From Deltaproteobacteria bacterium (lineage in GTDB: Bacteria > SAR324 > NAC60-12): a stretch of 37,496 nucleotides of DNA. The translations under genes and the position numbers were made by a program. The notes under the pieces are model-generated. The model did no database searches and was not told the DNA's origin. It worked only from the letters and a program-made list of their open reading frames with translations. The stretch lies in assembly GCA_038150265.1 (NCBI GenBank), contig JAYOTF010000012.1, positions 45,254 to 82,749 on the forward strand. The letters run 5' to 3'. Below are positions 17,951 through 37,446 of this stretch, in pieces; position 1 is the stretch's first letter, and each line of letters starts with the position of its first letter.

Positions 17951-19324
17951 TCAGGAAGCGGGCTCAAAGTGCGTGCCCAGAACCAGATCGGTCATGGAAA
18001 GCACCGCTTCCGGCATCCGGTTCATGACCCACAAAACGGTCTGGGCGCCAGAGCAGGCCTGCGCCACCGAGGTAAAGCAGTCCACATACTTTTCATAGCG
18101 TCCGGGCTCGCTGTTGTGCGGACGCTGAAGGTAGTCTGCCAGGTCACTCACCCGCTTGGTGTGTCCAAAAATAAGCTGGCCGTACTCGATGTGGGCTTCC
18201 GGAAAGCGTTCTGCCGCTGCACGGGCCAGGTCCAGGCTGTTGGGCAGACCGTCCGTCAGGTGGACCAGGGTCCGGGTGCCCTCCCACTTTTCCAGGTAGC
18301 CCTGTGCTGCCGCAAAGGCGGCTTCATACGCGGTGGTTCCGCCCGGGGGCACAAAGCCGTCAAAGCGCTCAAAGGACGGGAGCGCCGAGTCACTGTAGGG
18401 AATGACCCGCAGGGCAATTTTGGGAATGCAGGCCTTGAGGTGCTTCAGCAACGCGGCACAGGCAAGGTTTGCCATCTTGAAGAGGTCCCGCTCAAACGTT
18501 GAGGAGCTGATGTCGAGCAGAATCACCACCGCCGGACGCGCCTTGCGCAGCACCGGCCACGACTCCTGATGGAGCAACGACGGGCACAGCCGCGCCTGCT
18601 GCCGCTCCAGCGTCCGGCGAGTCCGCTCCGGAAACTGGTTCTCCAGCGTCGCTCCTTCCTCGGTGACCAACACCGAAGCCTCCAGCTTCAGTTCCGGAGG
18701 CGCATCCAGATCAAAGCGGGTGGGCACCCGAAACGCAAACATGTCCGCTTCCAGAGCCTCCCGGAGCAGCTTGGAGCGCACCGACCTCGGAGACGCCTCT
18801 GCCCGGTCGGCTTCTGCCACCGCCTGCCGCGCCAGGCGGTACTCGCGGATCAGCCCGTCGTGCTTGAGGACACAGGCAAAACGCTCCCCCCAGCGGGGCT
18901 CCGGAAGCGGAGCGCCTTCGCAGTAGGGAACCCGCTCCGCCTGCACCACCCGGATTTCAAAGTGCGGGTCCACCTTCCCAAAACGCAGCCCTCGCTGCAT
19001 CAGGGTCAGCAGCTGCCGCACCTCCAGTGCCACCGCGCGACGGGGCACCCACCACGGAACGCCTCCCACCTCCACCTGCTGCAGGCACCGTCGGACCCAC
19101 TGCTGTTCCTCCTTGCTCCGGCACGCCCGGAGCATCCGGTTGAGGTGCTGCTGCACCCGCCGCGACCCCGGACCCAGCTCCTGCTTCAGGCGCTGCTCGG
19201 CCACCACGCGTGCCACCGTCTGGCGCAGATCCGGGGGCAGCATCGGCGCCTCAGGAGGGTCGGGAGTCATCTCAAATTCCGTTCGACCGTCCTCCGAGAC
19301 TCCGGAGCGGTTCGGCATTTGCAT
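17951..19324 (-). CDS. Hypothetical protein with C-terminal von Willebrand factor A domain
   Basis: MIDAS motifs VILLDISSS, GGTT and LVHLTDGLPN. The N-terminal ~260 aa are not recognised and the start is uncertain (19324, 19270 or 19243). Confidence 0.72.
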   Translation of the reverse strand: MQMPNRSGVSEDGRTEFEMTPDPPEAPMLPPDLRQTVARVVAEQRLKQELGPGSRRVQQHLNRMLRACRSKEEQQWVRRCLQQVEVGGVPWWVPRRAVALEVRQLLTLMQRGLRFGKVDPHFEIRVVQAERVPYCEGAPLPEPRWGERFACVLKHDGLIREYRLARQAVAEADRAEASPRSVRSKLLREALEADMFAFRVPTRFDLDAPPELKLEASVLVTEEGATLENQFPERTRRTLERQQARLCPSLLHQESWPVLRKARPAVVILLDISSSTFERDLFKMANLACAALLKHLKACIPKIALRVIPYSDSALPSFERFDGFVPPGGTTAYEAAFAAAQGYLEKWEGTRTLVHLTDGLPNSLDLARAAAERFPEAHIEYGQLIFGHTKRVSDLADYLQRPHNSEPGRYEKYVDCFTSVAQACSGAQTVLWVMNRMPEAVLSMTDLVLGTHFEPAS

Positions 19325-24983: not shown

Positions 24984-25628
24984 ATGACCTTCTCTCAATG
25001 GGGACAGGTGGCCCTGGTGTGCCTGCTCGGCGCCATGTCTCCTGGCCCAAGCCTCGCCGTGGTGCTCCGGAACACCGTCGCCGGCGGACGCCTGCAGGGG
25101 CTGGCCACCGGCGTGGGGCACGGGCTGGGGATGCTCTTCTACGCCCTGGTTGCCGTGGCAGGGCTCGTGACGCTGTTCCAGACCATCCCGCACTTCTTTG
25201 AAATCGCCCAGTGGCTCGGAGCCGCCTTCCTGACCTGGCTCGGGGTTCAGATGATCCGAGGCGGTTGGCATGAGCTGCAGGCCCCTCCCGTCGCTCCACC
25301 AGACGCCCTGCCGCCTTCCGGACGTCGCGGCTTCGTCGAGGGCTTCCTGATTGCGTTCCTGAACCCGAAGATTGCGGCGTGGCTGCTGGCGCTGTTCAGC
25401 CAGTTTGTGCATCCGGAAGCAGCCTGGAGTGAACAGGCGGTGCTGGTCTCCACCGTGGGCGGCATCGACATGAGCTGGTACAGCCTCGTCGTGGTGCTTG
25501 CCTCTTCCGGAAACTGGATTGAGCGACTGAGGCGGCACAAGCCGCGGTTGGATCTGGGGATGGGAGCGTTGCTGCTGCTGCTGGCCTTCAGCATGGCCGG
25601 TCGGTCGCTTTGGGAACTAGCGAGCTGA
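24984..25628 (+). CDS. LysE/RhtB family amino acid exporter
   Basis: SPGP motif, GF.IAFLNPK, and several hydrophobic helices. Confidence 0.9.
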   Translation: MTFSQWGQVALVCLLGAMSPGPSLAVVLRNTVAGGRLQGLATGVGHGLGMLFYALVAVAGLVTLFQTIPHFFEIAQWLGAAFLTWLGVQMIRGGWHELQAPPVAPPDALPPSGRRGFVEGFLIAFLNPKIAAWLLALFSQFVHPEAAWSEQAVLVSTVGGIDMSWYSLVVVLASSGNWIERLRRHKPRLDLGMGALLLLLAFSMAGRSLWELAS

Positions 25629-26306
25629 CGCCGGAAAGCACGCGCGCATCTGCTGCACACGCGTCGGGTGCGGAGTGCCATCGGCCTGCATGGCACTGAA
25701 GTGCAGCTCGGTGACTCCAGTCGCCGCGACCACCGCCCGCGCATGCTCCGGACGCACCCCGCCACCGGCCAGCACCGTTGGTCCGGGGAGTTGCTGGAGC
25801 GCTGCCAGCGCGGCTCCCCCCTGACGGGCCTGAGGCGCCCCTCCGGAAGTGAGCACCCGCGTGATCGCTGGAAAGCGCTGCAGGCAGCGCCACGCTTCCG
25901 GAAGGTCTCGGGCTGCATCAAACGCCCGGTGAAAGGTCACCGGAACCACCGAGGCCTGACGCTTCAGCCGCTCCAGCCAAACGGCCAGTGCCGCTTCGTC
26001 CACCGCTCCTTCCGGAGTCAGTGCCCCCAGCACCACGCCAGCCGCTCCGGCCCCCAGAGCCTCGCTCAGCTGCTCCGCCATCGTTTGCACCTCCTCGGAG
26101 GTGTAGCAAAAGCTTCCGGCCCGGCAGCGGATCAGTACCATCACCGGCACACCCAGCTTCGCTGCTGCGGTCACCTGCTCCGCCTCTGGGGTGACGCCTC
26201 CGACGGCCAACTCGGCACACAGCTCCAAACGGTCCGCGCCCTGCGCCACGGCCAGCTGGGCGGCTTCCAGCGAGGTCACACACGCCTCCAGCGTGACCGG
26301 GCTCAC
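25617..26306 (-). CDS. cutC: CutC family protein
   Basis: LEACV, GADRLELC..LAVGGVTP, VLIRCRAGSFCY, TFHRAFD, RVLTSGG, AGGGV, ELHFS. The GTG at 26306 overlaps the upstream stop (GTGA). Confidence 0.9.
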   Translation of the reverse strand: MSPVTLEACVTSLEAAQLAVAQGADRLELCAELAVGGVTPEAEQVTAAAKLGVPVMVLIRCRAGSFCYTSEEVQTMAEQLSEALGAGAAGVVLGALTPEGAVDEAALAVWLERLKRQASVVPVTFHRAFDAARDLPEAWRCLQRFPAITRVLTSGGAPQARQGGAALAALQQLPGPTVLAGGGVRPEHARAVVAATGVTELHFSAMQADGTPHPTRVQQMRACFPASAR

Positions 26307-27601
26307 GCCAGAAAGGTCCGGACGGCCGAGACCACGTTCCACTGCTCATCCACCACATGCAACAACCGCCAGCGGTCAAACGTGGTGCAAGGATGCGAAA
26401 TGCCCATTCCCACCAGGTCTCCCACCTTCCAGCGCGCCTCCGGGGGCAGCTTCAGGTAGGCGTGTTGGTCGTTCAGGGCCGTGACCTGGTAGGAACCGTG
26501 GGAAAGCGGCTGCGGACAGGAGTGGGTTCCCGGCTGAAAGTGAAGTTCCGGAACAGGCAGGTGGATGTCATGGGAAAGGTCCCGTTTGCCAGCGGTGACG
26601 AGCGCCAGTCCCGGTTCCGGAAGCGACTGCACCACCCCCCACACCTGCAGGGCGGGCCGGAGTCCGTTCCCCAGCTCCTTCAGCGCAGGGCTGCGCTCGC
26701 AGATCTGTTCAAAGAGGTGCCGGTAAAATTCCGAATCGTGGGTCAGGTAGCAGCCGCTCCGGAGGATCCGGACCACCTCGACAGGCCCCTCTGGAGCCGA
26801 AAGATGCTGGGCCACCAGGTCGTAGTAATCGGAGCCACCGGCGCTGAGAATGACCGGCCCCGGCGCGAGCCAACCGTTGTCCCAGCAAGTCTGTGCCAGG
26901 CGGTTGAGGGTCTGCATGAATTCCGGAATCGCCGTTGCCGCATGGGGCCCCCGCAAGACGGCTTCGTAGGCCTCCAGTCCGCGCAACGCCAGCTTCGGAA
27001 ACTGCTGGATGTGCTCCGCCAGCGCCAACACGGCCTCCTCGGTCCGGCACCCCGTTCGGGCACCCGGCACCCCTAGCTCCACCAGCACCCCCAGGCGAGC
27101 CCCTTCTGGCGCGCGGGCTCCGGATGCGGCAAGCTGCTCCACGTTGTCTGGCGAGTCCACCAGACACAGCACCTCCAGTTCCGGGAAGCACCGGAGCGTG
27201 TCCCAAAGCCCCGCCCGCTCCTGCGGCCCCACCACCTGGTTGGCAATGAGCACCCGCGGAACGCCCCACTGCGCACAAAGCCGGAGCTGATGGACGTTGG
27301 CGACCGTGATCCCCCACGCGCCATCTTCCAGCTGCAGATCAAACAACTGTGGGGCCATCGTGGTCTTGCCATGCGGCGCCAGCTTCACGCCAAACGCTTC
27401 GGTGAAACGCCGCATCCAGGCGCTGTTTTCCCGAAGCACCGAGTCCTTGAGCACTGCCACCGGAAACGGCAGGTCGCCGCGAAGCAGGTTCCAGCCCTGT
27501 GTCCCCACCGCGCCCAAAGGCAGGGGAGGAGCCAGGTAGGGGAAGCCCTTGCAGGAAGCATCCACGGGTTCATGAAGGAGGGCGTTCAGGGAGAGAGCCA
27601 T
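26303..27601 (-). CDS. PLP-dependent (fold type III) D-amino acid/amino-sugar-acid deaminase, D-serine dehydratase/D-threonine aldolase-like
   Basis: LAPHGKTTMAPQLF (PLP Lys), GARTGCR, SAGGS, LRSGCYLTHD, GKRD, LNDQHAY, ISHPCTTFDRW. Confidence 0.85.
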   Translation of the reverse strand: MALSLNALLHEPVDASCKGFPYLAPPLPLGAVGTQGWNLLRGDLPFPVAVLKDSVLRENSAWMRRFTEAFGVKLAPHGKTTMAPQLFDLQLEDGAWGITVANVHQLRLCAQWGVPRVLIANQVVGPQERAGLWDTLRCFPELEVLCLVDSPDNVEQLAASGARAPEGARLGVLVELGVPGARTGCRTEEAVLALAEHIQQFPKLALRGLEAYEAVLRGPHAATAIPEFMQTLNRLAQTCWDNGWLAPGPVILSAGGSDYYDLVAQHLSAPEGPVEVVRILRSGCYLTHDSEFYRHLFEQICERSPALKELGNGLRPALQVWGVVQSLPEPGLALVTAGKRDLSHDIHLPVPELHFQPGTHSCPQPLSHGSYQVTALNDQHAYLKLPPEARWKVGDLVGMGISHPCTTFDRWRLLHVVDEQWNVVSAVRTFLA

Positions 27602-27615
27602 AAGCGTGGGTCGGG

Positions 27616-28392
27616 TTAGGTGTGGGTCAGGTCCTGAATCATCCGGAAGCTCCCGGCGGTCAGGCCACCATCAACGGCCAGGACGGCGCCGGTGACAAAG
27701 CTGGCATCTGACGACGCGAGGAAGGCAATGGCCGCAGCCACCTCTTCTGGCTGCCCGATCCGCCCCAGCGGGTACCACGCCACCAGCTTCTCAAAGTGCT
27801 CCGGATGGGCTTCGTACCGGTAGCGATGAACCGGGGTCTCAATGGTTCCGGGCAACACCGCATTGCAGCGAATGCCCTGCGGACCGTAAGAGGTGGCCAC
27901 GTTTTGGGTCAGGGAAAGCAGCCCCGCCTTGGCCGCGCTGTACGCCGGATTGCCCAACCCCACCACGGCATTGACCGAAGAGACATTGACGATGGCGCCT
28001 CCTTCCGGAAGCACCGACACGGCGCGGGTGATCAGGTCAAACTGAGCGTTGAGGTTCAGCTCCAGGTCCTCACGCCAACGGGTCGCATCCAGCTGCCCAA
28101 AGGTATCGTACCGCGAGCCCCCGGCGTTGTTGATCAGCCCATCCAGGCCTCCGAGGTGCTGCAGCGTTTGCTCCCACGCCTGCTGCTGACGGTCCGGGTT
28201 GCGCAGGTCGGCTTCCACAAAATGAACCGAGCCCGCTGCCGACAGCTCTTTTGCAGCCTTGTCACCGGTTACAGCATCAACGTCCCAGAACACCACGGTT
28301 GCCTGCTCCTGAAGCAACCGGCGGCAGGTGGCCTTGCCGATTCCGGACGCGCCACCGGTAACAAGCAGGCGTTTGTTGGCAAAGCGTTCCAT
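27616..28392 (-). CDS. Short-chain dehydrogenase/reductase
   Basis: TGGASGIG, NNAG, NVSS, YSAAK, PGTIET, FVTG..L.VDGG. The ATG at 28392 overlaps the upstream stop. Confidence 0.92.
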   Translation of the reverse strand: MERFANKRLLVTGGASGIGKATCRRLLQEQATVVFWDVDAVTGDKAAKELSAAGSVHFVEADLRNPDRQQQAWEQTLQHLGGLDGLINNAGGSRYDTFGQLDATRWREDLELNLNAQFDLITRAVSVLPEGGAIVNVSSVNAVVGLGNPAYSAAKAGLLSLTQNVATSYGPQGIRCNAVLPGTIETPVHRYRYEAHPEHFEKLVAWYPLGRIGQPEEVAAAIAFLASSDASFVTGAVLAVDGGLTAGSFRMIQDLTHT

Positions 28393-29570
28393 CAGGCGTC
28401 CTCCTCCAAAAGGGTGAAGGCCTCCCGGACCCACTCCAGTTGCACCTCCCGGAGGAAGCCGTAGTTGTAGAAGGCGATTCCATCTGGCTGGTACGCTCGC
28501 AACCCAGCGACCGCCTGCAGCACGGCCTCGCGACTCGGCAGGTCCGGATGCGCCGGACGCAGCACAAACCGGAGGCTGGCCTCAGGGCCCAGGCGATGGC
28601 GCACGTCTTCGGCATCCTGCAGCACTTCGGTGACACCGGGCTGGTAGGTGCAGGAGTCCAGGCCATCTGTGTGGGTCCGGACGCCCAGGAGGTCGGTGCC
28701 TTCGTACCAGCAGCCGGCGGTCGGACGCTGCACCGTCGGAATGACCCGCAGCGCCACCTCGCGAGGAAGGGCTTCCCGGATGCGCTGCAGCAGTTCGTTG
28801 ACCACCCGGCACCGCATCTTCAGAAACGCCTGGAGCTCCGGATGCGCCAGGAGGTCCGCCAGGAGCCAATGCTGCGCCAGTGTCGAACTCGGAACCACCG
28901 GATTCGTGAAGAACCGCTCCAGCTCCTGCTGAACCCAACGCTGCAACGCGTCCACATCAATGCCGTCTTGGCGCGCTTCCCGCTGAGAGGCTTCGGAAAA
29001 ACAGAGCCCGAGGAGGAACTCCGTCCTCGGGTCCATCGTTGTGAGGGCAAATTCATGGTGGTACCCATGCGCAGAGGGGAGCCACCCCGGCGTCTCCAGC
29101 GTCAGGGTGGACACGGCTTCATGACGGGCCAGGTCCTCGCAGAGGTGGACCGCATAATCCTGAACCTCCGGATGAGCGGGGCAGAGGCTATACAGGTACG
29201 GATCGCCCCAGGCGTTCCGGGCACAGTGCTCCGGATGCAGCGTCCCCAGCCGGGAGTTGTGCAGCAGCACCGTCCACGCCTCCAGACGCAGGGAGGAGTT
29301 CCAGTGCTGAAACAGGTTCAGCTCCGGGACCTGAGAGTTCCGCGCCGGCTTCAGGGCTCCGTACCGCGACTGATCCGGATCGAAGTAGACCGTGCCATCT
29401 TCCGGGAAGTACACCTTGTTCCGGGTGGCTCGGGGGCGGAGGAACTTTCCGGCGTGGTAGCTTGCAGCCACAGCCACCGAAGTGGCCCCCAGGGCTTCCA
29501 TGCGGGCCTGCGTTTGCTGCGGCCCTTCTTCCTGAAAGTCCCAGGCATAGGCAAACAGGGTTTTGTCCAT
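28392..29570 (-). CDS. Conserved hypothetical protein, probable glycoside-hydrolase-like TIM barrel
   Basis: Full-length ORF translationally coupled on both sides. Motifs FAYAWD, AASYHAGKFLRP, AWTVLLHN, LCPAHPEVQDY, LETPG, HGYHHE and GIAFYNYG. The fold assignment is an inference. Confidence 0.65.
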   Translation of the reverse strand: MDKTLFAYAWDFQEEGPQQTQARMEALGATSVAVAASYHAGKFLRPRATRNKVYFPEDGTVYFDPDQSRYGALKPARNSQVPELNLFQHWNSSLRLEAWTVLLHNSRLGTLHPEHCARNAWGDPYLYSLCPAHPEVQDYAVHLCEDLARHEAVSTLTLETPGWLPSAHGYHHEFALTTMDPRTEFLLGLCFSEASQREARQDGIDVDALQRWVQQELERFFTNPVVPSSTLAQHWLLADLLAHPELQAFLKMRCRVVNELLQRIREALPREVALRVIPTVQRPTAGCWYEGTDLLGVRTHTDGLDSCTYQPGVTEVLQDAEDVRHRLGPEASLRFVLRPAHPDLPSREAVLQAVAGLRAYQPDGIAFYNYGFLREVQLEWVREAFTLLEEDA

Positions 29571-30715
29571 CAGGGCTCCTCCGGCCAGGGCGTTCCGGCA
29601 AGGAAGATCTGCTGCAGCGTCAGTCGCTGAGAGCCCGTCATTTCCTGCCCCTTCACGTCTTGATACACAAACCGTCCCTCTTCCAGCGCCAGCAGGGCCA
29701 CATCGGCGTGGGCGCCTTCCTGAAGTGTTCCCAGATCCGGACGTCGCAGCACGGAAGCTGGCGTTGCGGTCACCCGACGGAGCGCCTCCAGAAGCGGCAG
29801 CCCCATGCAGAGAAACTTTGACACCGTGACCAGGACATCAAACGCCGGGCCGTTGACGCTGAGCACATGGGCGTCGCTGCTGACGGTATCAGGAGCAAAT
29901 CCATCGGCCAGCATCTGCTGGGCGACCTCAAACGAGAGCGCGCCCATGCCGTGTCCCACGTCAAACAGCACCCCGCGTTCCCGAGCCTTCCGGACCGAAT
30001 CGCGCGCCGTTCCCTGAGGACTGACGAGGGAGTTCGGAAAGGGGCGGAAGCAGTGCGTCAGCAGGTCTCCCGGACGCAGCAGCTCCAGGATTTCCTCGCG
30101 GCCGGGAGGTGGGAAGTCGATGTGGGTCATCACGGGCAGGCCGAGTTCTTCCGCCACCTCCAGGGCCACCAACAGCGGCGCCAGGCCGGCGTTTCCCCCA
30201 GCGTTGCGCCCAACCCGGACCTTGATGCCCACGATGCTCTCGGGGAACTTCCGGGCCACCTCCACGCACTCCTCCGCATTGAGCAGGCGCAGGTCCTCGC
30301 ACTCGGGGGCCATGACCCGCTCGCTGAAGCCGAAGATGCCGGCAAAGGAGACGTTCAGGAAGGCAAAGAAGCGCAGGGGCGAGGCATCGGCAATGAAGCG
30401 CTGGAACCCCGCGTAATTGCCGGGCCCGGCACTTCCCGCGTCCACAAACGTGGTGGTGCCACTCCGGCGGGCAATCGGCTCGGCTTCCACCCCCAGAGAC
30501 GTTCCGCCCCAGTAGACATGGGTGTGCAGGTCAATCAGTCCCGGAACCACCAGCTTTCCCGTGGCGTCCCAAACGGCTTCAGCCTCGGATGCCGGTAGCT
30601 CCGGAGCCACCGCCACCACCCGGCCTCCGGCAATGCCCACATCCCGGTTCGCGTCCAAATCTGCCGCCGGATCCACCAGGCGGCCCCCCTTGATGAGCCA
30701 CTCAAAACGCTTCAC
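29570..30715 (-). CDS. Amidohydrolase/deacetylase family metallohydrolase (dihydroorotase-like, EF_0837/Atu3266 type)
   Basis: PGLIDLHTHVY, GTTTFVDAGSAG, GIKVR, HIDFPP, THCF, FDVGHG, SSDAH. GTG at 30715 with an AAAGGGGG RBS; alternative ATG at 30745. Confidence 0.88.
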   Translation of the reverse strand: MKRFEWLIKGGRLVDPAADLDANRDVGIAGGRVVAVAPELPASEAEAVWDATGKLVVPGLIDLHTHVYWGGTSLGVEAEPIARRSGTTTFVDAGSAGPGNYAGFQRFIADASPLRFFAFLNVSFAGIFGFSERVMAPECEDLRLLNAEECVEVARKFPESIVGIKVRVGRNAGGNAGLAPLLVALEVAEELGLPVMTHIDFPPPGREEILELLRPGDLLTHCFRPFPNSLVSPQGTARDSVRKARERGVLFDVGHGMGALSFEVAQQMLADGFAPDTVSSDAHVLSVNGPAFDVLVTVSKFLCMGLPLLEALRRVTATPASVLRRPDLGTLQEGAHADVALLALEEGRFVYQDVKGQEMTGSQRLTLQQIFLAGTPWPEEP

Positions 30716-30766
30716 AGCCCCCTTTCTTCCTTGTCTCAAACTCATGGTTCGTTTCTCAGGACGATG

Positions 30767-30795
30767 ATGTTATCGTTATCATCAAGGGAAATCAA
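30767..30795 (-). promoter_or_regulatory. Candidate sigma70 promoter with overlapping LacI-family (GntR/cre-like) operator
   Basis: Minus-strand TTGATT (30795-30790), 17-nt spacer, TAACAT (30772-30767). Pseudo-palindrome ATGTTATCGTTATCAT at 30767-30782. Confidence 0.55.
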
Positions 30796-30975: not shown

Positions 30976-30997
30976 AATTTATACAATTGTAAAAATT
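30976..30997. promoter_or_regulatory. 22-bp near-perfect palindrome, candidate operator
   Basis: AATTTATACAATTGTAAAAATT: one mismatched pair, with a perfect core TACAATTGTA, in the AT-rich divergent intergenic region. Confidence 0.4.
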
Positions 30998-31240
30998 AAA
31001 AATCAGTTGGCATTCCAAGAATTTACCTCAAAGCAGCCGCCCCGCCCCCACTTCTAAAACGAAATCCCGTCCATCCGAGTGACCCGGTTCGCCGGGCTGA
31101 GGCTTCTTCATTCGGAGTCAGCCCCTGGATTCCCCCTTGTATCTATCCGCCTTTCCGGGAGAATCATGAGGGGGAAAATTGGAAAAATCCGGAGGCCGCC
31201 CCACTTACTCGCGCCCGACTCTGGCAAATGTATTTTTTTC

Positions 31241-31269
31241 TTGCAAATGTTTAATTTGTTCTGAACAAT
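31241..31269 (+). promoter_or_regulatory. Candidate promoter and operator of the ABC transporter operon
   Basis: TTGCAA (31241-31246), 17-nt spacer, AACAAT (31264-31269). Inverted repeat TTGTTC-T-GAACAA (31256-31268) overlaps the -10. Confidence 0.5.
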
Positions 31270-31424
31270 AGAGCCGTTCTGCACTCAAACAATGGTTTCT
31301 CATCCACGAGCACGAGAATAGTCTGGTCACTGATCAGAGCCGTTTGGGGAAGCGCGAGGACACGAAAAACAGGGCATTCAAACCGACTGAGTGGCAACTG
31401 AGTCCGGAGGAGAAAGACGGGATA

Positions 31425-32513
31425 ATGACATTGAAGTTGGAGGGAGTCTCAAAGTTGGTGGAGGGGCAGACCCACATCTACGAGACCAGTTTGGAGTTGC
31501 AAAAGGGGACCATGAACGTCCTCTTGGGGCCGACCTCTTCCGGCAAGACCTCGCTCATGCGCCTGATGGCAGGTCTGGACGTCCCCCATTCAGGGAAGAT
31601 CTTCTGGGAAGGCCAAGACGTCACTGGGCAGCGGGTGCAGGACCGCAGGGTCGCGATGGTGTACCAGCAGTTCATCAACTATCCCTCCATGACCGTCTAC
31701 GAAAACATTGCGTCTCCCCTCCGGTTGCTGGGCAAGCGTCCGCAGGAAATTGACGAGGCGGTTCGGAAGACCGCCGACCTGATGAAGCTGACCCCGATGC
31801 TGGACCGCAAACCCCTGGAGCTTTCCGGAGGCCAGCAGCAGCGGTGTGCGCTGGCACGGGCGTTGGTCAAGAACGCGGGGCTGGTGCTCCTGGATGAGCC
31901 GCTGGCGAACCTCGACTACAAGCTCCGGGAAGAGCTGCGCGCCGAGATCCCTCGCATCTTTGAAGAATCCGGATCCATCTTTGTGTACGCGACCACCGAG
32001 CCGGAAGAGGCGCTGCTGCTGGGTGGCAACACGGCCACCCTGTGGGAGGGCCGGGTCACGCAGTTTGGCCTCACGCCGCAGGTGTACCGCAAACCGAATG
32101 ACGCGACCACCGCTCGGGTCTTCTCCGATCCTCCCATGAACTTCATTTCCATTCAAAAATCTGGAAATCAGGTGGCTTTTGGCAGCCGCCAGCACCCGCT
32201 GCCTTCCGGTCCGCTGACTGGCCTGGCCGACGGTTCCTACCTGGCCGGGTTCCGGCCCAACCACCTCAAGCTCCAACCAACGGTGGCAGGAGCCATGGAG
32301 TTTCACACCACGTTGGGGGTGACGGAAATCACGGGCTCGGAAACCTTTGTGCACCTTGATTACGAGGGCAACCGCTGGATTGGGCTGGTTCATGGCATCC
32401 AGCACCTCAAGATTGGTCAGGACCTTTCGGTTTACCTGGATCCGGCGCACGTTTACCTGTTTGCCCCGGACGGTGCCCTGGTGGCTCCGGCCCCTTACGC
32501 GGAGGTGGCATAA
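31425..32513 (+). CDS. glpS: ABC transporter ATP-binding subunit 1 (glycerol uptake GlpS-like)
   Basis: GPTSSGKT, VYQQFINYP, LSGGQQQR, LLDEPLANLDYKLREELR, YATTEP, C-terminal TOBE-like region. ATG at 31425. Confidence 0.85.
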   Translation: MTLKLEGVSKLVEGQTHIYETSLELQKGTMNVLLGPTSSGKTSLMRLMAGLDVPHSGKIFWEGQDVTGQRVQDRRVAMVYQQFINYPSMTVYENIASPLRLLGKRPQEIDEAVRKTADLMKLTPMLDRKPLELSGGQQQRCALARALVKNAGLVLLDEPLANLDYKLREELRAEIPRIFEESGSIFVYATTEPEEALLLGGNTATLWEGRVTQFGLTPQVYRKPNDATTARVFSDPPMNFISIQKSGNQVAFGSRQHPLPSGPLTGLADGSYLAGFRPNHLKLQPTVAGAMEFHTTLGVTEITGSETFVHLDYEGNRWIGLVHGIQHLKIGQDLSVYLDPAHVYLFAPDGALVAPAPYAEVA

Positions 32514-32516
32514 CTC

Positions 32517-33605
32517 ATGGCTAAGATCACCCTCGACAACCTCGCTCACTCCTACCTTCCGAATCCGACGTCGGAAGACGACTTTGCGCTCAAGGACCTG
32601 AACCACGTCTGGGCCGATGGAGAAGCCTATGCGCTGCTGGGTCCGTCCGGATGTGGCAAGTCCACGCTCCTCAACATCATTTCCGGCCTGCTGGTTCCCA
32701 GTCAGGGGCGCATCCTGTTTGATGGAACCGATGTCACCCAGGCGCCCACCGCCGAGCGGAACATCGCCCAGGTGTTTCAGTTTCCCGTGGTGTACGACAC
32801 CATGTCGGTCCGCGACAACCTGGCCTTTCCCCTCCGGAACCGAGGCTCCGACCCCAGCTACATCCGTGAGCGGGTGAATCAGGTGGCCCGGATGATCGGC
32901 ATGGAGGCAGAACTCGATCGCAAGGCCCGGGGCCTGACGGCTGATGCCAAGCAGAAGATTTCGCTGGGACGGGGCATGGTCCGCGAAGACGTGAACGCCC
33001 TCCTCTTTGACGAGCCGCTGACGGTGATTGACCCCCACATGAAGTGGGAGCTCCGGACTCAGCTGAAGTCGCTTCACATTGAGTTTGGGCACACGATGAT
33101 CTACGTCACCCACGACCAGACGGAAGCCCTGACGTTTGCCGACAAGGTGGTGGTCATGTATGACGGGCGGGTCGTCCAGATCGGAACCCCGCAGGAGCTG
33201 TTTGAGCGTCCGGCCCACACGTTTGTGGGCTACTTCATTGGCTCTCCCGGGATGAACCTCTTTGACATGGAGCTTTCTGGCTCACACGCCTATGTGGCAG
33301 GCACCCGCATCGAACTGGGGGCCTCCTACCAGGTGACCGGAGGCAAGCTCCAGTTGGGGGTGCGCCCGGACTACATTCGCCTGACTCAGGATGAAACCGG
33401 AATTCCCGCCAAGCTGATCCGGGTGGAGGACGTCGGCCGTCACAAGATCGTCCGCCTGGAGGTCAATGGACAGGCCGTGAACGCCATTGCAGAGGAGGGC
33501 GAGGAGATTCCAGCCGATGCCCACCGCATCGCCCTGCTTCCGGAAGGCCTCAACGTTTATGCCGATGACTGGCGCCTGGCGCCCGAAGGAGAGTCGAATT
33601 CATGA
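32517..33605 (+). CDS. glpT: ABC transporter ATP-binding subunit 2 (glycerol uptake GlpT-like of the rhizobial glp ABC system, not the MFS GlpT)
   Basis: GPSGCGKST, FQFPVVYDTM, LTADAKQKISLGRG, FDEPLTVIDP, YVTHDQTEA. Confidence 0.85.
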   Translation: MAKITLDNLAHSYLPNPTSEDDFALKDLNHVWADGEAYALLGPSGCGKSTLLNIISGLLVPSQGRILFDGTDVTQAPTAERNIAQVFQFPVVYDTMSVRDNLAFPLRNRGSDPSYIRERVNQVARMIGMEAELDRKARGLTADAKQKISLGRGMVREDVNALLFDEPLTVIDPHMKWELRTQLKSLHIEFGHTMIYVTHDQTEALTFADKVVVMYDGRVVQIGTPQELFERPAHTFVGYFIGSPGMNLFDMELSGSHAYVAGTRIELGASYQVTGGKLQLGVRPDYIRLTQDETGIPAKLIRVEDVGRHKIVRLEVNGQAVNAIAEEGEEIPADAHRIALLPEGLNVYADDWRLAPEGESNS

Positions 33606-34477
33606 ATAAAACCGTCAATCAAAAGGCCTGGTTCCTCGTCCTTCCGGTTCTGATCCTGGTCGCCTTCTCTGCCGTCATTCCCCTCATGACCGTGGTCAAC
33701 TACTCGGTCCAGGACACCTTTGGGAACAACAAGTTCTTCTGGGCGGGGCTGGAGTGGTTTCAGGAGATGCTGGACTCCGAGCGCATGTGGAATGCGCTGG
33801 GGCGGCAATTGGCCTTTTCAGCCATCATCCTGGCTCTGGAGATTCCGCTGGGCATTTATGTGGCCCTGCACATGCCGAAGCGGGGCTTCTGGGCCAGCTT
33901 CTGCCTCGTGGTGATGTCGCTGCCGCTGCTGATTCCATGGAACGTCGTGGGGACCATCTGGCAGATTTTCGGACGTGTGGACATTGGCCTGCTCGGTTAC
34001 ACGCTCAACCAGGCGGGGATTTCGTACAACTACACGCAGGACTTCTTTGCCGCGTGGAGCACGCTGATTGTCATGGACGTCTGGCACTGGACGTCGCTGG
34101 TGGCCCTGCTCGCCTACGCGGGGCTGCAGTCCATTCCGGAAGCCTACTACCAGGCGGCTAAAATCGACCAGGCCTCTCGCTGGAAGGTCTTCCGCTACAT
34201 TGAGCTGCCCAAGATGTCCGGCGTCCTCATGATCGCGATCCTGCTGCGGTTCATGGACAGCTTCATGATCTACACGGAGCCGTTTGTGGTCACGGGAGGC
34301 GGCCCTGGAAACGATACCACCTTCCTTTCGATCGATTTGGTGAAGATGGCGCTGGGGCAGTTTGACCTTGGCCCGGCGGCCGCCTTCTCCATCATGTACT
34401 TCCTGGTCATCCTCCTGATCTCCTGGGTGTTCTACATTGTCATGACGAATCTCGACAAGCGGGAAGCACAGTCATGA
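33602..34477 (+). CDS. glpP: Carbohydrate ABC transporter permease 1 (GlpP-like)
   Basis: NQKAWFLVLPV, DVWHWTSLV, EAA-like YQAAKIDQAS.W.VFRYIELP, RFMDSF. Confidence 0.85.
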   Translation: MNKTVNQKAWFLVLPVLILVAFSAVIPLMTVVNYSVQDTFGNNKFFWAGLEWFQEMLDSERMWNALGRQLAFSAIILALEIPLGIYVALHMPKRGFWASFCLVVMSLPLLIPWNVVGTIWQIFGRVDIGLLGYTLNQAGISYNYTQDFFAAWSTLIVMDVWHWTSLVALLAYAGLQSIPEAYYQAAKIDQASRWKVFRYIELPKMSGVLMIAILLRFMDSFMIYTEPFVVTGGGPGNDTTFLSIDLVKMALGQFDLGPAAAFSIMYFLVILLISWVFYIVMTNLDKREAQS

Positions 34478-34513
34478 TCCTGACCCCTCATCCTTCTGTG
34501 GGAGCCGTTCCTC

Positions 34514-35335
34514 ATGAGTAAACCGTCCGGCAACGCCAGCACCCAGTCACCCCTGGTCATTGCGCTGTACCTGATCTTCCTGATGCTCCCCATCTACTGG
34601 CTCCTCAACATGAGCCTGAAGACCAACACGGAGATCCTCGGCGAGATCACGCTCTGGCCCCAGGACCTGACCTTTGAGAACTACATCACGATTCTGACGG
34701 ATGCGAGTTGGTACATGGGGTACGTCAACTCCCTCATCTACGTGGTCCTGAACACCGTCATCAGCGTGGTCGTGGCCCTTCCGGCGGCTTACGCGTTCTC
34801 GCGGTACAGCTTCCTCGGAGACAAGCACCTCTTCTTCTGGCTGCTGACCAACCGGATGGCGCCTCCGGCCGTCTTTGCGCTCCCGTTCTTTCAGCTTTAT
34901 TCGTCTGTCGGACTCTTTGACACGCACATTGCGGTGGCACTCGCCCACTGCCTCTTCAACATCCCCCTCGCGGTTTGGATTCTGGAAGGCTTCATGCGGG
35001 GGGTGCCCAAGGAAATTGACGAAACGGCCTACATTGACGGCTACAGCTTCGGACGGTTCTTTGGACGGATCTTCATGCCGCTGATTGCTTCCGGAGTGGG
35101 CGTGGTCGCGTTCTTCTGCTTCATGTTTTCCTGGGTGGAGCTGCTGCTCTCCCGGACCCTGACCACGGTAGACGCCAAGCCCATTTCCGCAATCATGACC
35201 CGGACGCAGGGCGCCTCCGGAATCGATTGGGGCGTCTTGGCGGCAGCGGGGATGCTGACCATTGTCCCAGGCGCGCTGGTGATCTACTTCGTTCGCAACT
35301 ACATCGCCAAGGGCTTTGCCCTCGGTCGAGTCTAA
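34514..35335 (+). CDS. glpQ: Carbohydrate ABC transporter permease 2 (GlpQ-like of the rhizobial glp ABC system)
   Basis: LPIYWLLNMSLK, EAA loop IDETAYIDG, FMFSWVELL, YIAKGFALGRV. Confidence 0.85.
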   Translation: MSKPSGNASTQSPLVIALYLIFLMLPIYWLLNMSLKTNTEILGEITLWPQDLTFENYITILTDASWYMGYVNSLIYVVLNTVISVVVALPAAYAFSRYSFLGDKHLFFWLLTNRMAPPAVFALPFFQLYSSVGLFDTHIAVALAHCLFNIPLAVWILEGFMRGVPKEIDETAYIDGYSFGRFFGRIFMPLIASGVGVVAFFCFMFSWVELLLSRTLTTVDAKPISAIMTRTQGASGIDWGVLAAAGMLTIVPGALVIYFVRNYIAKGFALGRV

Positions 35336-35362
35336 GCCCCCCTACGGAAAGGAGCTTCCCTC

Positions 35363-35635
35363 ATGGAATGGATGGCATGGACTGCACCGACTGCGATTTT
35401 TTTCGCCGTCATTGCTTCCCTTCTTGTGACCTTTACCGTGTTGGCCATTAAGTTTCCGGAGACGCCCCGTGTGGGCATCCTCCGCATTGAGACAACCCGT
35501 GGTGACCGCTTATTCATCACCTTGCTGGGGTCCGCCTTCATCAATTTGATCTGGCTGGGCTTCGAGGTTGGTCCGCAGCCTTATGCGCTGCTGGCATGTT
35601 TGGTTTACGCTGGAGCGGTGTTCCGCTGGGTGTGA
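35363..35635 (+). CDS. glpU: Small integral membrane protein DUF2160 (GlpU-like)
   Basis: WMAWTAPTAIFF, RVGILRIETTRGDRLFITLLGSAFI; AAGGAG RBS; lies between the permeases and the binding protein. Confidence 0.82.
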   Translation: MEWMAWTAPTAIFFAVIASLLVTFTVLAIKFPETPRVGILRIETTRGDRLFITLLGSAFINLIWLGFEVGPQPYALLACLVYAGAVFRWV

Positions 35636-35724
35636 GCCAATTTTGAGTCGGGAGCGCGTTGGAGATGTCCTCTGAGCCTCCTTGGTAGCAATCAATTCCT
35701 AATTGAATAGGGAGGAGAGAGTCA

Positions 35725-37446
35725 ATGAAGTTGACACTGAAATCCGCACTGGCCACGGCCTTTGCGATGGGGCTCATGGGCAGCGCTGCCCAAGCCGACA
35801 TGACCGCTGCGCGGAACTTCCTGCAGTCGGAGATTGGCGACCAGTCCACGTTGACTCGGGCGCAGCAAGAAGCTGAAATGCAGTGGTTCATTGATGCTGC
35901 AAAGCCGTTCGCCGGCATGGAGATCAAGGTGGTCTCGGAGACCATCACCACCCACGAGTACGAGAGCCAGGTGCTGGCCCCGGCCTTCAGCGCCATCACG
36001 GGCATCAAGGACACCCACGACCTCATGGGTGAGGGAGACGTGGTGGAAAAGCTGCAGACCCAGATGCAGTCCGGCGAGAACATCTACGACGGCTACATCA
36101 ACGACTCCGACCTGATCGGCACCCACTGGCGCTATCAGCAGGCCCGGAACCTGTCTGACTGGATCTCGGGAGAAGGCAAGGACGTCACGAACCCGAACCT
36201 CGACCTCGAAGACTTCATTGGCCTGAGCTTCACCACCGGTCCGGATGGAAAGGTGTACCAGCTCCCGGATCAGCAGTTTGCGAACCTGTACTGGTTCCGC
36301 TACGACTGGTTCAATGACGCCCAGAACAAGGCAGACTTCAAAGCCAAGTATGGCTACGAGCTCGGAGTGCCGGTCAACTGGTCGGCTTACGAAGACATTG
36401 CCGAGTTCTTCACCGGACGTGACCTGAGCCGCCTCGGTGTCGAGGGCAAGGTCTATGGAAACATGGACTACGGCAAGAAGGACCCCTCCCTCGGCTGGCG
36501 TTACACTGACGCGTGGATGTCGATGGCAGGAATGGGCGACAAGGGTGAGCCGAACGGACTCCCTGTCGACGAGTGGGGCATCCGGGTCAACGAGAAGTCC
36601 CAGCCGGTGGGCTCCTGTGTTGCTCGTGGTGGCGCCACCAACTCCCCGGCCGCAGTTTACGCGGTCACCAAGGCCATTGAGTGGCTCCAGAAGTACTCCC
36701 CGCCTGCAGCCGCTGGGATGACCTTCTCGGAAGCGGGTCCGATTCCGGCTCAAGGAAACGTGGCTCAGCAGATGTTCTGGTACACCGCCTTCACCGCAGA
36801 CACCGTGAAGCCGGGCCTGCCCGTGATGAATGCCGATGGCACTCCGAAGTGGCGCATGGCTCCCAGCCCCCACGGCGCCTACTGGAGCGAAGGCACCAAG
36901 ATTGGCTATCAGGACGCCGGTTCCTGGACCCTGATGAAGTCCACCCCGGTGGACCGTGCCAAGGCCGCTTGGCTCTACGCCCAGTTTGTCACCTCCAAGA
37001 CCGTGGACGTGAAGAAGTCCCACGTGGGCCTGACCTTCATCCGCGAGTCGACCATCCAGCACCAGAGCTTCACCGAGCGTGCCCCGCAGCTGGGTGGACT
37101 CGTTGAGTTCTACCGCTCCCCGGCTCGCGTCCAGTGGTCCCCCACCGGCACCAACGTTCCGGACTACCCGAAGCTGGCTCAGCTGTGGTGGCAGAACATC
37201 GGTGACGCCATGTCCGGCTCCAAGACTCCGCAAGAAGCCCTTGATGGACTCTGCGAAGACCAGGAGAAGGTGCTGATCCGCCTCGAGCGGGCTGGCATCC
37301 AGGGCGAGTTGGGTCCGAAGATGAACGACGAGCGCGACCCGGACTACTGGCTGAATCAGCCGGGCTCCCCGAAGGCCAAGCTGGCCAACGAGGACGAAAA
37401 GCCGATCACCGTCTCCTATGACGAACTGATCAAGTCCTGGCAGTAA
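35725..37446 (+). CDS. glpV: ABC transporter periplasmic substrate-binding protein (glycerol-binding GlpV-like)
   Basis: Signal peptide ending AAQA; VVSETITTHEYES, NDSDLIGTH, YQLPDQQFANLYWFR, MDYGKKDPSLGWR, WSPTGTNVPDYPKLAQLWW; GGAGG RBS. Confidence 0.85.
   Translation: MKLTLKSALATAFAMGLMGSAAQADMTAARNFLQSEIGDQSTLTRAQQEAEMQWFIDAAKPFAGMEIKVVSETITTHEYESQVLAPAFSAITGIKDTHDLMGEGDVVEKLQTQMQSGENIYDGYINDSDLIGTHWRYQQARNLSDWISGEGKDVTNPNLDLEDFIGLSFTTGPDGKVYQLPDQQFANLYWFRYDWFNDAQNKADFKAKYGYELGVPVNWSAYEDIAEFFTGRDLSRLGVEGKVYGNMDYGKKDPSLGWRYTDAWMSMAGMGDKGEPNGLPVDEWGIRVNEKSQPVGSCVARGGATNSPAAVYAVTKAIEWLQKYSPPAAAGMTFSEAGPIPAQGNVAQQMFWYTAFTADTVKPGLPVMNADGTPKWRMAPSPHGAYWSEGTKIGYQDAGSWTLMKSTPVDRAKAAWLYAQFVTSKTVDVKKSHVGLTFIRESTIQHQSFTERAPQLGGLVEFYRSPARVQWSPTGTNVPDYPKLAQLWWQNIGDAMSGSKTPQEALDGLCEDQEKVLIRLERAGIQGELGPKMNDERDPDYWLNQPGSPKAKLANEDEKPITVSYDELIKSWQ

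What the first reader, a model, noticed from the sequence alone, without database searches (positions are those of the whole stretch)
25617..30795. Five-gene operon that looks like an undescribed amino-sugar-acid catabolic route (deacetylase + unknown TIM barrel + SDR + PLP deaminase + CutC)
Seen: five co-oriented genes with overlapping stop/start junctions at 29570, 28392 and 26303-26306 and a 14-nt gap, so probably one operon. Known: EF_0837/Atu3266-type amidohydrolases are deacetylase-like; fold-III 'cryptic D-serine dehydratase' PLP enzymes eliminate ammonia from beta-hydroxy D-amino acids, the chemistry that converts glucosaminate to KDG; oxidative GlcNAc use via deacetylase then deaminase to KDG has been described in marine Gammaproteobacteria. 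Inference: the SDR oxidises an N-acyl amino sugar, the amidohydrolase deacylates it and the PLP enzyme deaminates it to a 2-keto-3-deoxy acid. The uncharacterised TIM barrel and CutC would supply unknown steps. CutC's position here argues for a carbohydrate-related role rather than copper homeostasis. No transporter, kinase or aldolase is in the operon.
Basis: partly seen in the sequence, partly recalled or inferred. Interest (0 to 1): 0.72.

Follow-up and report, generated by a model that had tools for sequence, protein, structure and literature searches.

The report
Oxidative amino-sugar breakdown operon, unnamed enzyme
Five tightly joined genes in an estuarine bacterium likely oxidise an N-acetylated amino sugar, remove its acetyl and amino groups and feed the carbon into central metabolism, using a widespread enzyme family that has no name yet and a protein long labelled as a copper protein.

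Summary
The operon is real: all five genes and junctions are as described. Its core is an unnamed, glycosidase-shaped barrel plus one SDR subfamily (65 of 80 loci). Around this core, genomes swap parts that keep the same chemistry. The deacylase is a COG3964 amidohydrolase or a D-aminoacylase; all 41 non-family genomes tested have one, and only 4 have both. Most also have a fold-III PLP deaminase with a His-x-Cys metal site. Relatives place nagB, dgoK/dgoA, nanE, anmK/nagZ or glycosaminoglycan-degrading genes beside the barrel. Best reading: N-acylhexosamine → lactone → acid → amino-sugar acid → 2-keto-3-deoxy acid plus ammonia. The second half mirrors the known Ong route. I found no paper describing the dehydrogenase entry, the COG3964 deacylase in this role, or the barrel. 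No activity is shown. The sugar is open; GalNAc is my best guess, because this genome appears to route GlcNAc and ManNAc otherwise. The five-gene unit itself occurs in only two genomes of one genus, and CutC's link is recurrent but loose. Verdict: new variant of a known kind, interest 0.6.

The parts
29570..30745 (-). COG3964/PRK09237 binuclear amidohydrolase; predicted N-acyl-hexosaminate deacylase (likely start GTG 30715)
   Evidence: NCBIfam PRK09237 395 bits over cut-off 371; 2OGJ E 8e-59; H74, H76, K175, H208, H231, D291 present; replaced by a D-aminoacylase in 15 of 15 barrel genomes that lack it
28392..29570 (-). Unnamed glycoside-hydrolase-like (beta/alpha)8 barrel with a His-rich site (D11, H39, H104, E159, H168, H171, H172); predicted to act on the lactone/acid intermediate
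   Evidence: No Pfam; AF2 pLDDT 94.9; Cwp19 Z 26.9, GH151 Z 24.0, PgaB Z 23.5, GH156 Z 20.9; conservation in 129 diverse sequences; 2289 clusters at 50% identity with E<=0.001
27616..28392 (-). SDR of the PRK07074-like subfamily; predicted NAD+-dependent N-acylhexosamine 1-dehydrogenase
   Evidence: TGxxxGIG at 12, Asp37, NNAG at 88, YxxxK at 151; barrel-linked SDRs form one clade (66 rows, SH-aLRT 96, quick tree) with haloarchaeal SDRs as sister (support 80)
26303..27601 (-). Fold-type III PLP enzyme of the 3GWQ (D-serine deaminase-like) type; predicted hexosaminate ammonia-lyase
   Evidence: 3GWQ E 1.6e-101; PLP lysine K79 and H403-x-C405 metal motif, aligned to the His347/Asp349 site of D-threonine aldolase 4V15
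25617..26306 (-). CutC-family barrel; accessory, role unknown, amino-sugar context recurrent
   Evidence: PF03932 E 4e-48; within 10 kb of the barrel in 5 of 80 loci; next to nagA-like or ROK genes in 3 further genomes
30978..30995 (.). Palindrome with a perfect 10-bp core in the AT-rich upstream region; candidate operator overlapping a promoter-like site
   Evidence: Inverted repeat I2; promoter-like site 31013-30986 on the minus strand (9 of 12 matches, weak); same stretch kept in L001 while flanks diverge; position

Best explanation
The five co-oriented genes likely form an oxidative route that would turn an N-acetylated amino sugar (most likely N-acetylgalactosamine in this genome) into a 2-keto-3-deoxy sugar acid, acetate and ammonia. 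Steps, all inferred: (1) the SDR oxidises C1 with NAD+ to the N-acetyl-hexosaminono-lactone. (2) The His-rich barrel acts on that lactone or its acid. My single best guess is a metal-dependent lactone hydrolase (about 0.35), then a C2 epimerase or lactone isomerase (0.25), a glycosidase (0.15), a 3-O-eliminase (0.1), other (0.15). (3) The COG3964 amidohydrolase removes the N-acetyl group from the D-amino-acid-like acid. (4) The fold-III PLP/Zn enzyme beta-eliminates water and releases ammonia, giving KDGal or KDG. (5) Kinase and aldolase encoded elsewhere (dgoK, kdgK-like, dgoA) finish the route. CutC is an accessory sugar-acid enzyme or binding protein, not a copper protein. Substrate odds: GalNAc 0.35, GlcNAc 0.25, ManNAc 0.15, other N-acyl amino sugar (MurNAc, 6-deoxy, sulfated) 0.25. 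Shown: gene structure, families, catalytic residues, fold, co-occurrence. Not shown: any activity.
For: Barrel + SDR within 2 kb in 65 of 80 GTDB loci. Deacylase swap: COG3964 in 27 of 80 loci, D-aminoacylase in 13 of 80, never together. In 41 whole genomes: 26 COG3964, 19 D-aminoacylase, 4 both, 0 neither. Creatininase, AstE/AspA and PIG-L deacylases fill the slot in Haloferax, Rhizobium and Natrinema. Fold-III lyase in 13 of 80 loci, all 12 full-length ones with His-x-Cys; RidA in 15 of 80. In the host family (37 genomes) SDR orthologues occur in 11 of 14 barrel genomes versus 1 of 23 others, amidohydrolase 11 vs 1, fold-III lyase 13 vs 4. Sugar clues: nagB inside the operon in L004 passes its cut-offs; dgoK + dgoA with barrel, SDR, lyase and deacylase in L072, and with lyase and deacylase in L155; nanE + ROK in L024, L026, L231, L234, L236; GH88/kduD, heparinase/GH20/sulfatase and anmK/namZ/nagZ clusters. 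Own genome: anmK-murQ-nagB-kdgK-like operon, dgoK, dgoA, GH20/ABC/BadF-kinase cluster, nanA-like/ABC/AGE-epimerase cluster, no ROK or NanE match. OngB/OngC carry out steps 3-4 on GlcNAc acid, and OngC is fold III (PMC9537276).
Against: No enzyme here has been assayed. The barrel-linked D-aminoacylases read G-S-T where OngB has S290-S291-S292, and mostly lack Q298. The OngB S292T mutant keeps 1.3% efficiency (PMC12017989), so they may act on N-acyl-D-amino acids or a different sugar. Four of the 13 (L015, L018, L019, L021) look like ordinary D-aminoacylases on the opposite strand and may be chance neighbours. OngC itself also deaminates D-Ser and D-Thr. 15 of 41 barrel genomes have no close lyase orthologue at my thresholds. 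G001 (same genus, 96% complete) keeps SDR-PLP-CutC and the amidohydrolase but has no barrel. The haloarchaeal barrels in peptidoglycan and glycosaminoglycan clusters have lost D11 and H171, so their context may not transfer. A second barrel subfamily sits beside an amidohydrolase-type lactonase in 35 of 80 loci, which argues against the barrel being a plain lactonase. Kin are not independent, so the Fisher p of 6e-8 overstates.
Confidence: 0.65

Rival explanations
1. The cluster salvages N-acyl-D-amino acids or other small N- or O-acylated hydroxy acids (for example N-acetyl-D-serine or -threonine): deacylase plus D-serine deaminase, with the SDR and barrel acting on a non-sugar precursor.
For: Barrel-linked D-aminoacylases carry the amino-acid-type G-S-T motif. 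The closest PLP structure is named D-serine deaminase. NMT1-type ABC transporters for small anions occur in 16 of 80 loci. Atu3266 was reported to prefer acetyl-R-mandelate (recalled; paper not held).
Against: It does not explain nagB, dgoK/dgoA, KDGP aldolase, eda, nanE/ROK, sugar ABC transporters, RpiR regulators or a glycosidase-like fold beside the barrel.
Confidence: 0.12
2. The barrel is an inverting glycosidase that frees the N-acylhexosamine from a disaccharide or glycoside; the other genes then oxidise and deaminate the released sugar.
For: Fold neighbours are all glycosidases (Cwp19, GH151, GH153, GH156). D11 and E159 are near-invariant, and the family has a Cys4 cluster (C130, C190, C192, C195). 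Haloarchaeal members sit among polysaccharide hydrolases.
Against: No acidic residue ends strand 7 (R338), so the clan-A nucleophile is missing. Five conserved histidines suggest a metal site. Many clusters carry monosaccharide-type (CUT2) or NMT1 transporters rather than oligosaccharide ones. The members among hydrolases have lost D11.
Confidence: 0.12
3. The route handles N-acetylmuramic acid or 3-O-substituted HexNAc: after C1 oxidation the barrel eliminates lactate (or a sugar) from C3, and the deacylase and RidA release KDG.
For: Barrel + SDR lie in anmK/HAD/amidase/namZ/nagZ clusters of Haladaptatus and Halorussus. This genome has a kdgK-like gene at the end of anmK-murQ-nagB. Some clusters have a deacylase and aldolase but no PLP lyase.
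Against: The host already has MurQ above cut-off. Those haloarchaeal barrels are a divergent clade. A PLP lyase would be redundant, yet 13 of 14 family genomes with the barrel have one.
Confidence: 0.07
4. The five genes are a recent, partly accidental assembly, and CutC (perhaps also the PLP gene) is unrelated to the barrel-SDR module.
For: The full order was found only in G000 and G002. Most CutC genes in the 78 genomes searched have unrelated neighbours. The window's CutC is only 33-35% identical to the barrel-linked alphaproteobacterial CutCs.
Against: Scattered copies still co-occur across the family. CutC was recruited next to the barrel in a second lineage and lies next to nagA/ROK genes in others.
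Confidence: 0.04

Closest known systems
Ong pathway of Pseudoalteromonas (OngB deacetylase, OngC fold-III deaminase, OngD RidA, KdgK; PMC9537276, PMC12017989)
   Same: Deacylation, then PLP-dependent deamination of an N-acetyl-hexosaminate to a 2-keto-3-deoxy acid; RidA and RpiR-type neighbours in relatives.
   Different: Ong starts from the acid made by LPMO cleavage of chitin. Here an SDR and an unnamed barrel lie upstream, the deacylase is COG3964 rather than D-aminoacylase-fold, and there is no LPMO, GH20, transporter, kinase or regulator in the operon.
COG3964 amidohydrolases Atu3266 (2OGJ), EF0837 (2ICS), 8JE0, 8WZY
   Same: Same metal ligands and NCBIfam PRK09237 membership.
   Different: A distinct subfamily (E 8e-59 to 2OGJ; EF_0837 model not passed). 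EF0837-type paralogues lie beside DgaE-like lyases (L148). No physiological substrate is known to me (recalled).
D-serine deaminase-like 3GWQ; D-threonine aldolase 4V15; chicken D-serine dehydratase 3ANU
   Same: Fold III, PLP lysine, metal site at the same place.
   Different: His-x-Cys rather than the aldolase's His-x-Asp; substrate of the 3GWQ subfamily not established in anything I could read.
GHL10/GH177 (Cwp19), GH151, GH153 (PgaB), GH156
   Same: (beta/alpha)8 barrel, Z 20.9-26.9, rmsd 2.8-3.5 over 276-311 residues.
   Different: 11-17% identity, no significant sequence match to PDB, His-rich site, no strand-7 acid, cytoplasmic catabolic context.
Salmonella dga (D-glucosaminate PTS, DgaE lyase, KDPG aldolase)
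   Same: Amino-sugar acid to 2-keto-3-deoxy acid by PLP beta-elimination; a DgaE-like gene lies beside the barrel in Natrinema and Halomontanus.
   Different: Dga works on the 6-phosphate with a fold-I enzyme and has no deacylase or dehydrogenase (recalled; only search listings seen).
CutC
   Same: Full-length PF03932 member.
   Different: The E. coli copper phenotype is due to the MicL RNA inside cutC, not the protein (PMC4102768); here the context is amino-sugar catabolism.

Membership tests
Ong (oxidative GlcNAc-acid) pathway | D-aminoacylase-fold deacetylase OngB with S290/S292/Q298 | tested here: not met
   The operon has a COG3964 enzyme; no D-aminoacylase in G000. Barrel-linked D-aminoacylases read G-S-T.
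Ong (oxidative GlcNAc-acid) pathway | Fold-type III PLP deaminase | tested here: met
   PF14031 + PF01168, K79, H403-x-C405. Orthology to OngC itself not tested: I had no OngC sequence.
Ong (oxidative GlcNAc-acid) pathway | KDG kinase, RidA, regulator and transporter in the cluster | tested here: not met
   None in the operon; a kdgK-like kinase (below cut-off) and two RidA-family genes lie elsewhere; no RpiR match.
Ong (oxidative GlcNAc-acid) pathway | Activity on GlcNAc acid giving KDG | not testable with these tools
   Needs assay.
COG3964 / PRK09237 amidohydrolase | Score above the PRK09237 cut-off and binuclear ligands HxH, K, H, H, D | tested here: met
   395 vs 371 bits; residues.
EF_0837 family (TIGR03583) | Score above cut-off 432 | tested here: not met
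   251 bits.
Retaining clan GH-A glycosidases | Glu at the ends of strands 4 and 7 | tested here: not met
   E159 invariant at strand 4; strand 7 ends in R338 (60% R, no acid).
GHL10/GH177, GH151, GH153, GH156 | Shared barrel fold | tested here: met
   Z 20.9-26.9; Foldseek E down to 8e-10.
GHL10/GH177, GH151, GH153, GH156 | Family profile match and matching catalytic residues | tested here: inconclusive
   No Pfam hit for the window protein; PF02638 is listed for 8 of 120 homologues; residue-level structural alignments were not available.
D-serine dehydratase-type fold III (versus D-threonine aldolase) | His-x-Cys metal site in place of His-x-Asp | tested here: met
   that His/Cys marks the dehydratases is recalled.
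N-acylhexosamine 1-dehydrogenase (EC 1.1.1.240) or N-acylmannosamine dehydrogenase | Sequence kinship or activity | tested here: inconclusive
   No such enzyme named in the best 60 PDB hits; aldose 1-dehydrogenases appear. SDR similarity does not fix the substrate; the EC entry is recalled.
CutC | PF03932 above cut-off over the full length | tested here: met
   163.9 bits, positions 2-200 of 202; PRK11572 equivalog not passed (138 vs 311).

The most novel reading that the evidence does not exclude
A self-contained oxidative route for free N-acylhexosamines (GalNAc above all), spread from marine SAR324-like bacteria through Alphaproteobacteria to haloarchaea. In it a glycosidase scaffold has become a metal-dependent enzyme for sugar lactones (hydrolase, epimerase or eliminase), COG3964 finds its natural substrate, the SDR is the missing N-acylhexosamine dehydrogenase, and CutC turns out to be an amino-sugar-acid enzyme.
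Probability: 0.35. Interest if true: 0.8.

Novelty: new variant of a known kind. Interest (0 to 1): 0.6.

Why it matters
Amino sugars from chitin, peptidoglycan and glycoproteins are a large pool of carbon and nitrogen in water and soil. Pathway databases largely assume phosphorylative routes, so genomes with this module would be scored as unable to use them. The operon also makes four open questions testable with one set of clones: what COG3964 amidohydrolases act on in the cell; what CutC does now that its copper phenotype is explained by MicL; which gene encodes an N-acylhexosamine dehydrogenase; and what a family of over 2,000 sequence clusters with a glycosidase fold and a His-rich site catalyses.

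Tried and rejected
Sequence searches of the barrel against PDB found nothing significant (Cwp19 only at E 0.64). The Atlas gave only unnamed clusters, with GHL10 at 0.90-0.92. No relative in viral contigs. The barrel was found in no further genome among 300 scored in the class of G062 and in 2 more of 150 in the phylum of G061, with only 6-12 candidates scored per genome: not found in those searched, not absent. The Atu3266 paper is not held. Paper searches gave no description of this cluster: GlcNAc/glucosaminate/deacetylase/deaminase/KDG; Atu3266, cog3964, EF0837, STM4445, Oant2987; N-acylhexosamine dehydrogenase terms; glucosaminate/galactosaminate terms; Haloferax locus tags, guessed from memory; CutC; PDB ids; ManNAc oxidation. 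The library lacks most subscription journals, and I opened no supplements. Earlier scan findings: none. No RNA holder listed. Rejected: the divergent ABC transporter (31344-37446) as the operon's importer, because it has the layout of a glycerol ABC system (recalled) and its binding protein occurs in only 1 of 80 loci. Rejected: the barrel as a substitute for the PLP lyase, because most barrel genomes have a lyase. Rejected: a C2 epimerase for ManNAc as first choice in this genome, because a nanA-like/AGE-epimerase cluster exists. No complex prediction was run, as no binding is claimed. The SDR tree is the quick tree; the careful search did not finish. Gene calls in loci came from my own composition-based caller, which missed the window's CutC, so neighbour counts are floors.

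Full report
Observation. CutC ends head-to-head with a LysE gene. Contigs from 3 public runs cover the stretch without indels. The host is probably a SAR324-group bacterium: the closest barrel homologues (52-62%) come from records titled SAR324 or Deltaproteobacteria MAGs (inference). Runs holding half or more of the sampled words are labelled estuary or aquatic metagenomes where labelled.

The proteins. The amidohydrolase passes NCBIfam PRK09237 but not the EF_0837 model, and keeps all six metal ligands of 2OGJ. The SDR is a classical type with Asp37, so NAD+ is likely; its best model is PRK07074, below cut-off. The PLP enzyme matches 3GWQ at E 1.6e-101 and has His403-x-Cys405 where D-threonine aldolase has His347-x-Asp349; that pattern marks dehydratases (recalled). 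CutC is full length.

The barrel. The 392-aa protein has no Pfam, NCBIfam or PDB sequence match. It folds with pLDDT 94.9 into a glycosidase-type barrel: Cwp19 Z 26.9 (rmsd 2.8, 286 aligned), GH151 Z 24.0, PgaB Z 23.5, GH156 Z 20.9. A profile finds 2289 representatives at E<=0.001. In 129 diverse sequences (25-52% identity) D11, H39, H104, E159, H168, H171 and H172 are 93-100% conserved. So is a Cys4 cluster, of which the window protein has lost two cysteines. Strand 7 ends in Arg, not the Glu of retaining glycosidases. A metal-using enzyme on a sugar-binding scaffold is my inference.

Neighbourhoods. Of 537 GTDB relatives the best 80 were returned. The SDR follows the barrel within 2 kb in 65 of 80. 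The COG3964 enzyme is present in 27 and a D-aminoacylase in 13, never together. A fold-III lyase is present in 13, RidA in 15, RpiR in 14, Gfo/Idh/MocA oxidoreductases in 26 and CutC in 5. Barrel-linked SDRs form one clade of 66 rows (SH-aLRT 96, quick tree) with haloarchaeal SDRs as sister at 80.

Whole genomes. I searched the genomes behind 41 of the 80 loci, chosen for longer loci: 26 have COG3964, 19 a D-aminoacylase, 4 both, none neither; 26 of 41 have a close lyase orthologue. Among 37 genomes of the host's family, 14 have the barrel. SDR orthologues occur in 11 of these 14 versus 1 of 23 others, the amidohydrolase (>=50% identity) in 11 versus 1, a lyase in 13 versus 4, CutC in 3 versus 2. 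The second lyase type was sought in only 7 of the 23. The three barrel genomes without an SDR hit have the barrel near a contig end. The full five-gene order was seen only in G000 and G002. G001 keeps SDR-PLP-CutC at the same site and the amidohydrolase elsewhere, but has no barrel.

Distant members. Annotated plasmids (158 records; 14 opened) show the same logic with other parts. Rhizobium etli: AstE-type deacylase, RidA, amino acid deaminase, lactonase-like enzyme and sugar ABC. Haloferax and Haloarcula: creatininase-type deacylase, sugar ABC, enolase-superfamily enzyme, SDR, RidA, and eda in Haloferax. Alicyclobacillus: phosphotriesterase-like, creatininase, KDGP aldolase, kinase. Nonomuraea: D-aminoacylase, fold-III enzyme and a RidA-like ORF. 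Natrinema and Halomontanus: heparinase, GH20, PIG-L deacetylase, DgaE-like lyase, D-aminoacylase. Haladaptatus salinisoli and Halorussus: anmK, namZ, nagZ. A Burkholderia plasmid: GH88 and kduD. Three records gave no clear amino-sugar context. A metagenome scan centred on a second subfamily (253 relatives, best 80, many Rhizobium-like and 39 under 8 kb) gave deacylase 39, lactonase-like 35, lyase 26, RidA 26 and SDR only 10. Lactonase-like genes occur in only 2 of the first 80 loci by that test, 4 counting Pfam hits. So the barrel pairs either with a lactone-maker or with a lactone-opener, which places it at the lactone step; whether it hydrolyses, epimerises or eliminates is open.

Which sugar. 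L004 has nagB inside the operon, above cut-off. L072 has dgoK and dgoA in the barrel cluster; L155, from another barrel genome, has them beside its deacylase and lyase. That points to KDGal and so GalNAc. NanE + ROK follow the barrel in 5 loci, pointing to ManNAc. The host has anmK-murQ-nagB plus a kdgK-like kinase, a nagA-like gene below cut-off, a GH20/ABC/BadF-kinase cluster, a nanA-like/ABC/AGE-epimerase cluster, dgoK and one dgoA-type aldolase. GlcNAc, MurNAc and ManNAc thus appear to have other routes. I saw no ROK kinase match and no SIS protein that looks like AgaS by size (not a dedicated search), so GalNAc is the best guess. Against GlcNAc acid: barrel-linked D-aminoacylases read G-S-T at OngB's S290-S292 and mostly lack Q298, while an unlinked ong-like cluster (L159) has both. 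PMC12017989 shows these residues decide specificity. The same result keeps the N-acyl-D-amino-acid rival alive.

CutC. The E. coli copper phenotype belongs to MicL (PMC4102768, passages). Of 24 CutC genes in 78 genomes, 6 lie near the barrel (two lineages), 1 in G001's SDR-PLP unit, 3 beside nagA-like or ROK genes and 1 beside a Gfo gene of the barrel-linked type; the rest have unrelated neighbours. One more barrel-CutC link is in L225. These genomes were chosen for having the barrel or for kinship, so this is suggestive only.

Papers seen. PMC9537276: passages and section 13. PMC12017989: passages and parts 2-4 of 8. PMC4102768, PMC4401734, PMC12343721, PMC12524618 and bioRxiv 2022.07.15.499691: passages. 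Ornelas 2013 (Atu3266): reference line only, content recalled. EC 1.1.1.240 and the glycerol ABC layout: recalled. No supplements were read; the ong paper's supplements may list further clusters. Ten searches found no description of this cluster.

Verdict. It works like the Ong route but is not a member: the deacylase family differs and two upstream genes are added. New variant of a known kind; pathway confidence 0.65; interest 0.6.

Noticed in passing
window 31344-37446 (+): Six-gene ABC transporter divergent from the operon (two ATPases, two permeases, a 90-aa ORF, a 573-aa binding protein with no Pfam hit); the layout resembles glycerol ABC systems (recalled). Conserved in L001 only.
   Followed up: partly
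window 31220-31257: A 19-nt tandem repeat upstream of the ABC transporter is kept in L001 while flanks diverge; candidate regulator site.
   Followed up: partly
window 3036-4895 (-): Old-yellow-enzyme-type flavin oxidoreductase fused to a GNAT acetyltransferase in one ORF.
   Followed up: no
window 7471-9666 (-): 731-aa metallo-beta-lactamase-fold protein with a cNMP-binding domain; weak anti-Pycsar Apyc1 match below cut-off.
   Followed up: no
window 5136-6848 (+) and 17951-19324 (-): A ChlI/MoxR-type AAA-VWA fusion, and a 457-aa ORF with a VWA-like motif and no Pfam hit.
   Followed up: no
G000:C25:29950-33684 (L110): anmK-murQ-nagB operon ends in a KDG/KDGal-kinase-like PfkB gene, an unusual addition to peptidoglycan-sugar genes.
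   Followed up: partly
L059:9609-9965 and 7 other loci: A 113-118-aa VOC-fold protein without Pfam travels with the barrel and a Gfo oxidoreductase in Rhizobiales; a glyoxalase-family gene takes its place in 3 loci.
   Followed up: partly
L102, L108 (haloarchaeal plasmids): Haloarchaea carry a full peptidoglycan-sugar scavenging cluster (anmK, HAD, amidase-like, namZ, nagZ) with no murQ in the stretch shown, and with a divergent barrel.
   Followed up: partly
L054:2342-4597: COG3964 amidohydrolase in one ORF with an M42 peptidase, next to CutC and an FGGY kinase; fusion or frameshift not checked.
   Followed up: no
L231, L234, L236: Amidohydrolase-barrel-fatty-acid-hydroxylase-like-nanE-ROK cluster; L231 and L234 also carry two BNR-repeat proteins, a PhyH dioxygenase and an M81 peptidase; possibly for a modified sialic acid.
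   Followed up: no
L148 (G019): Two COG3964 paralogues flank a sugar ABC transporter, one paired with a DgaE-like lyase.
   Followed up: no
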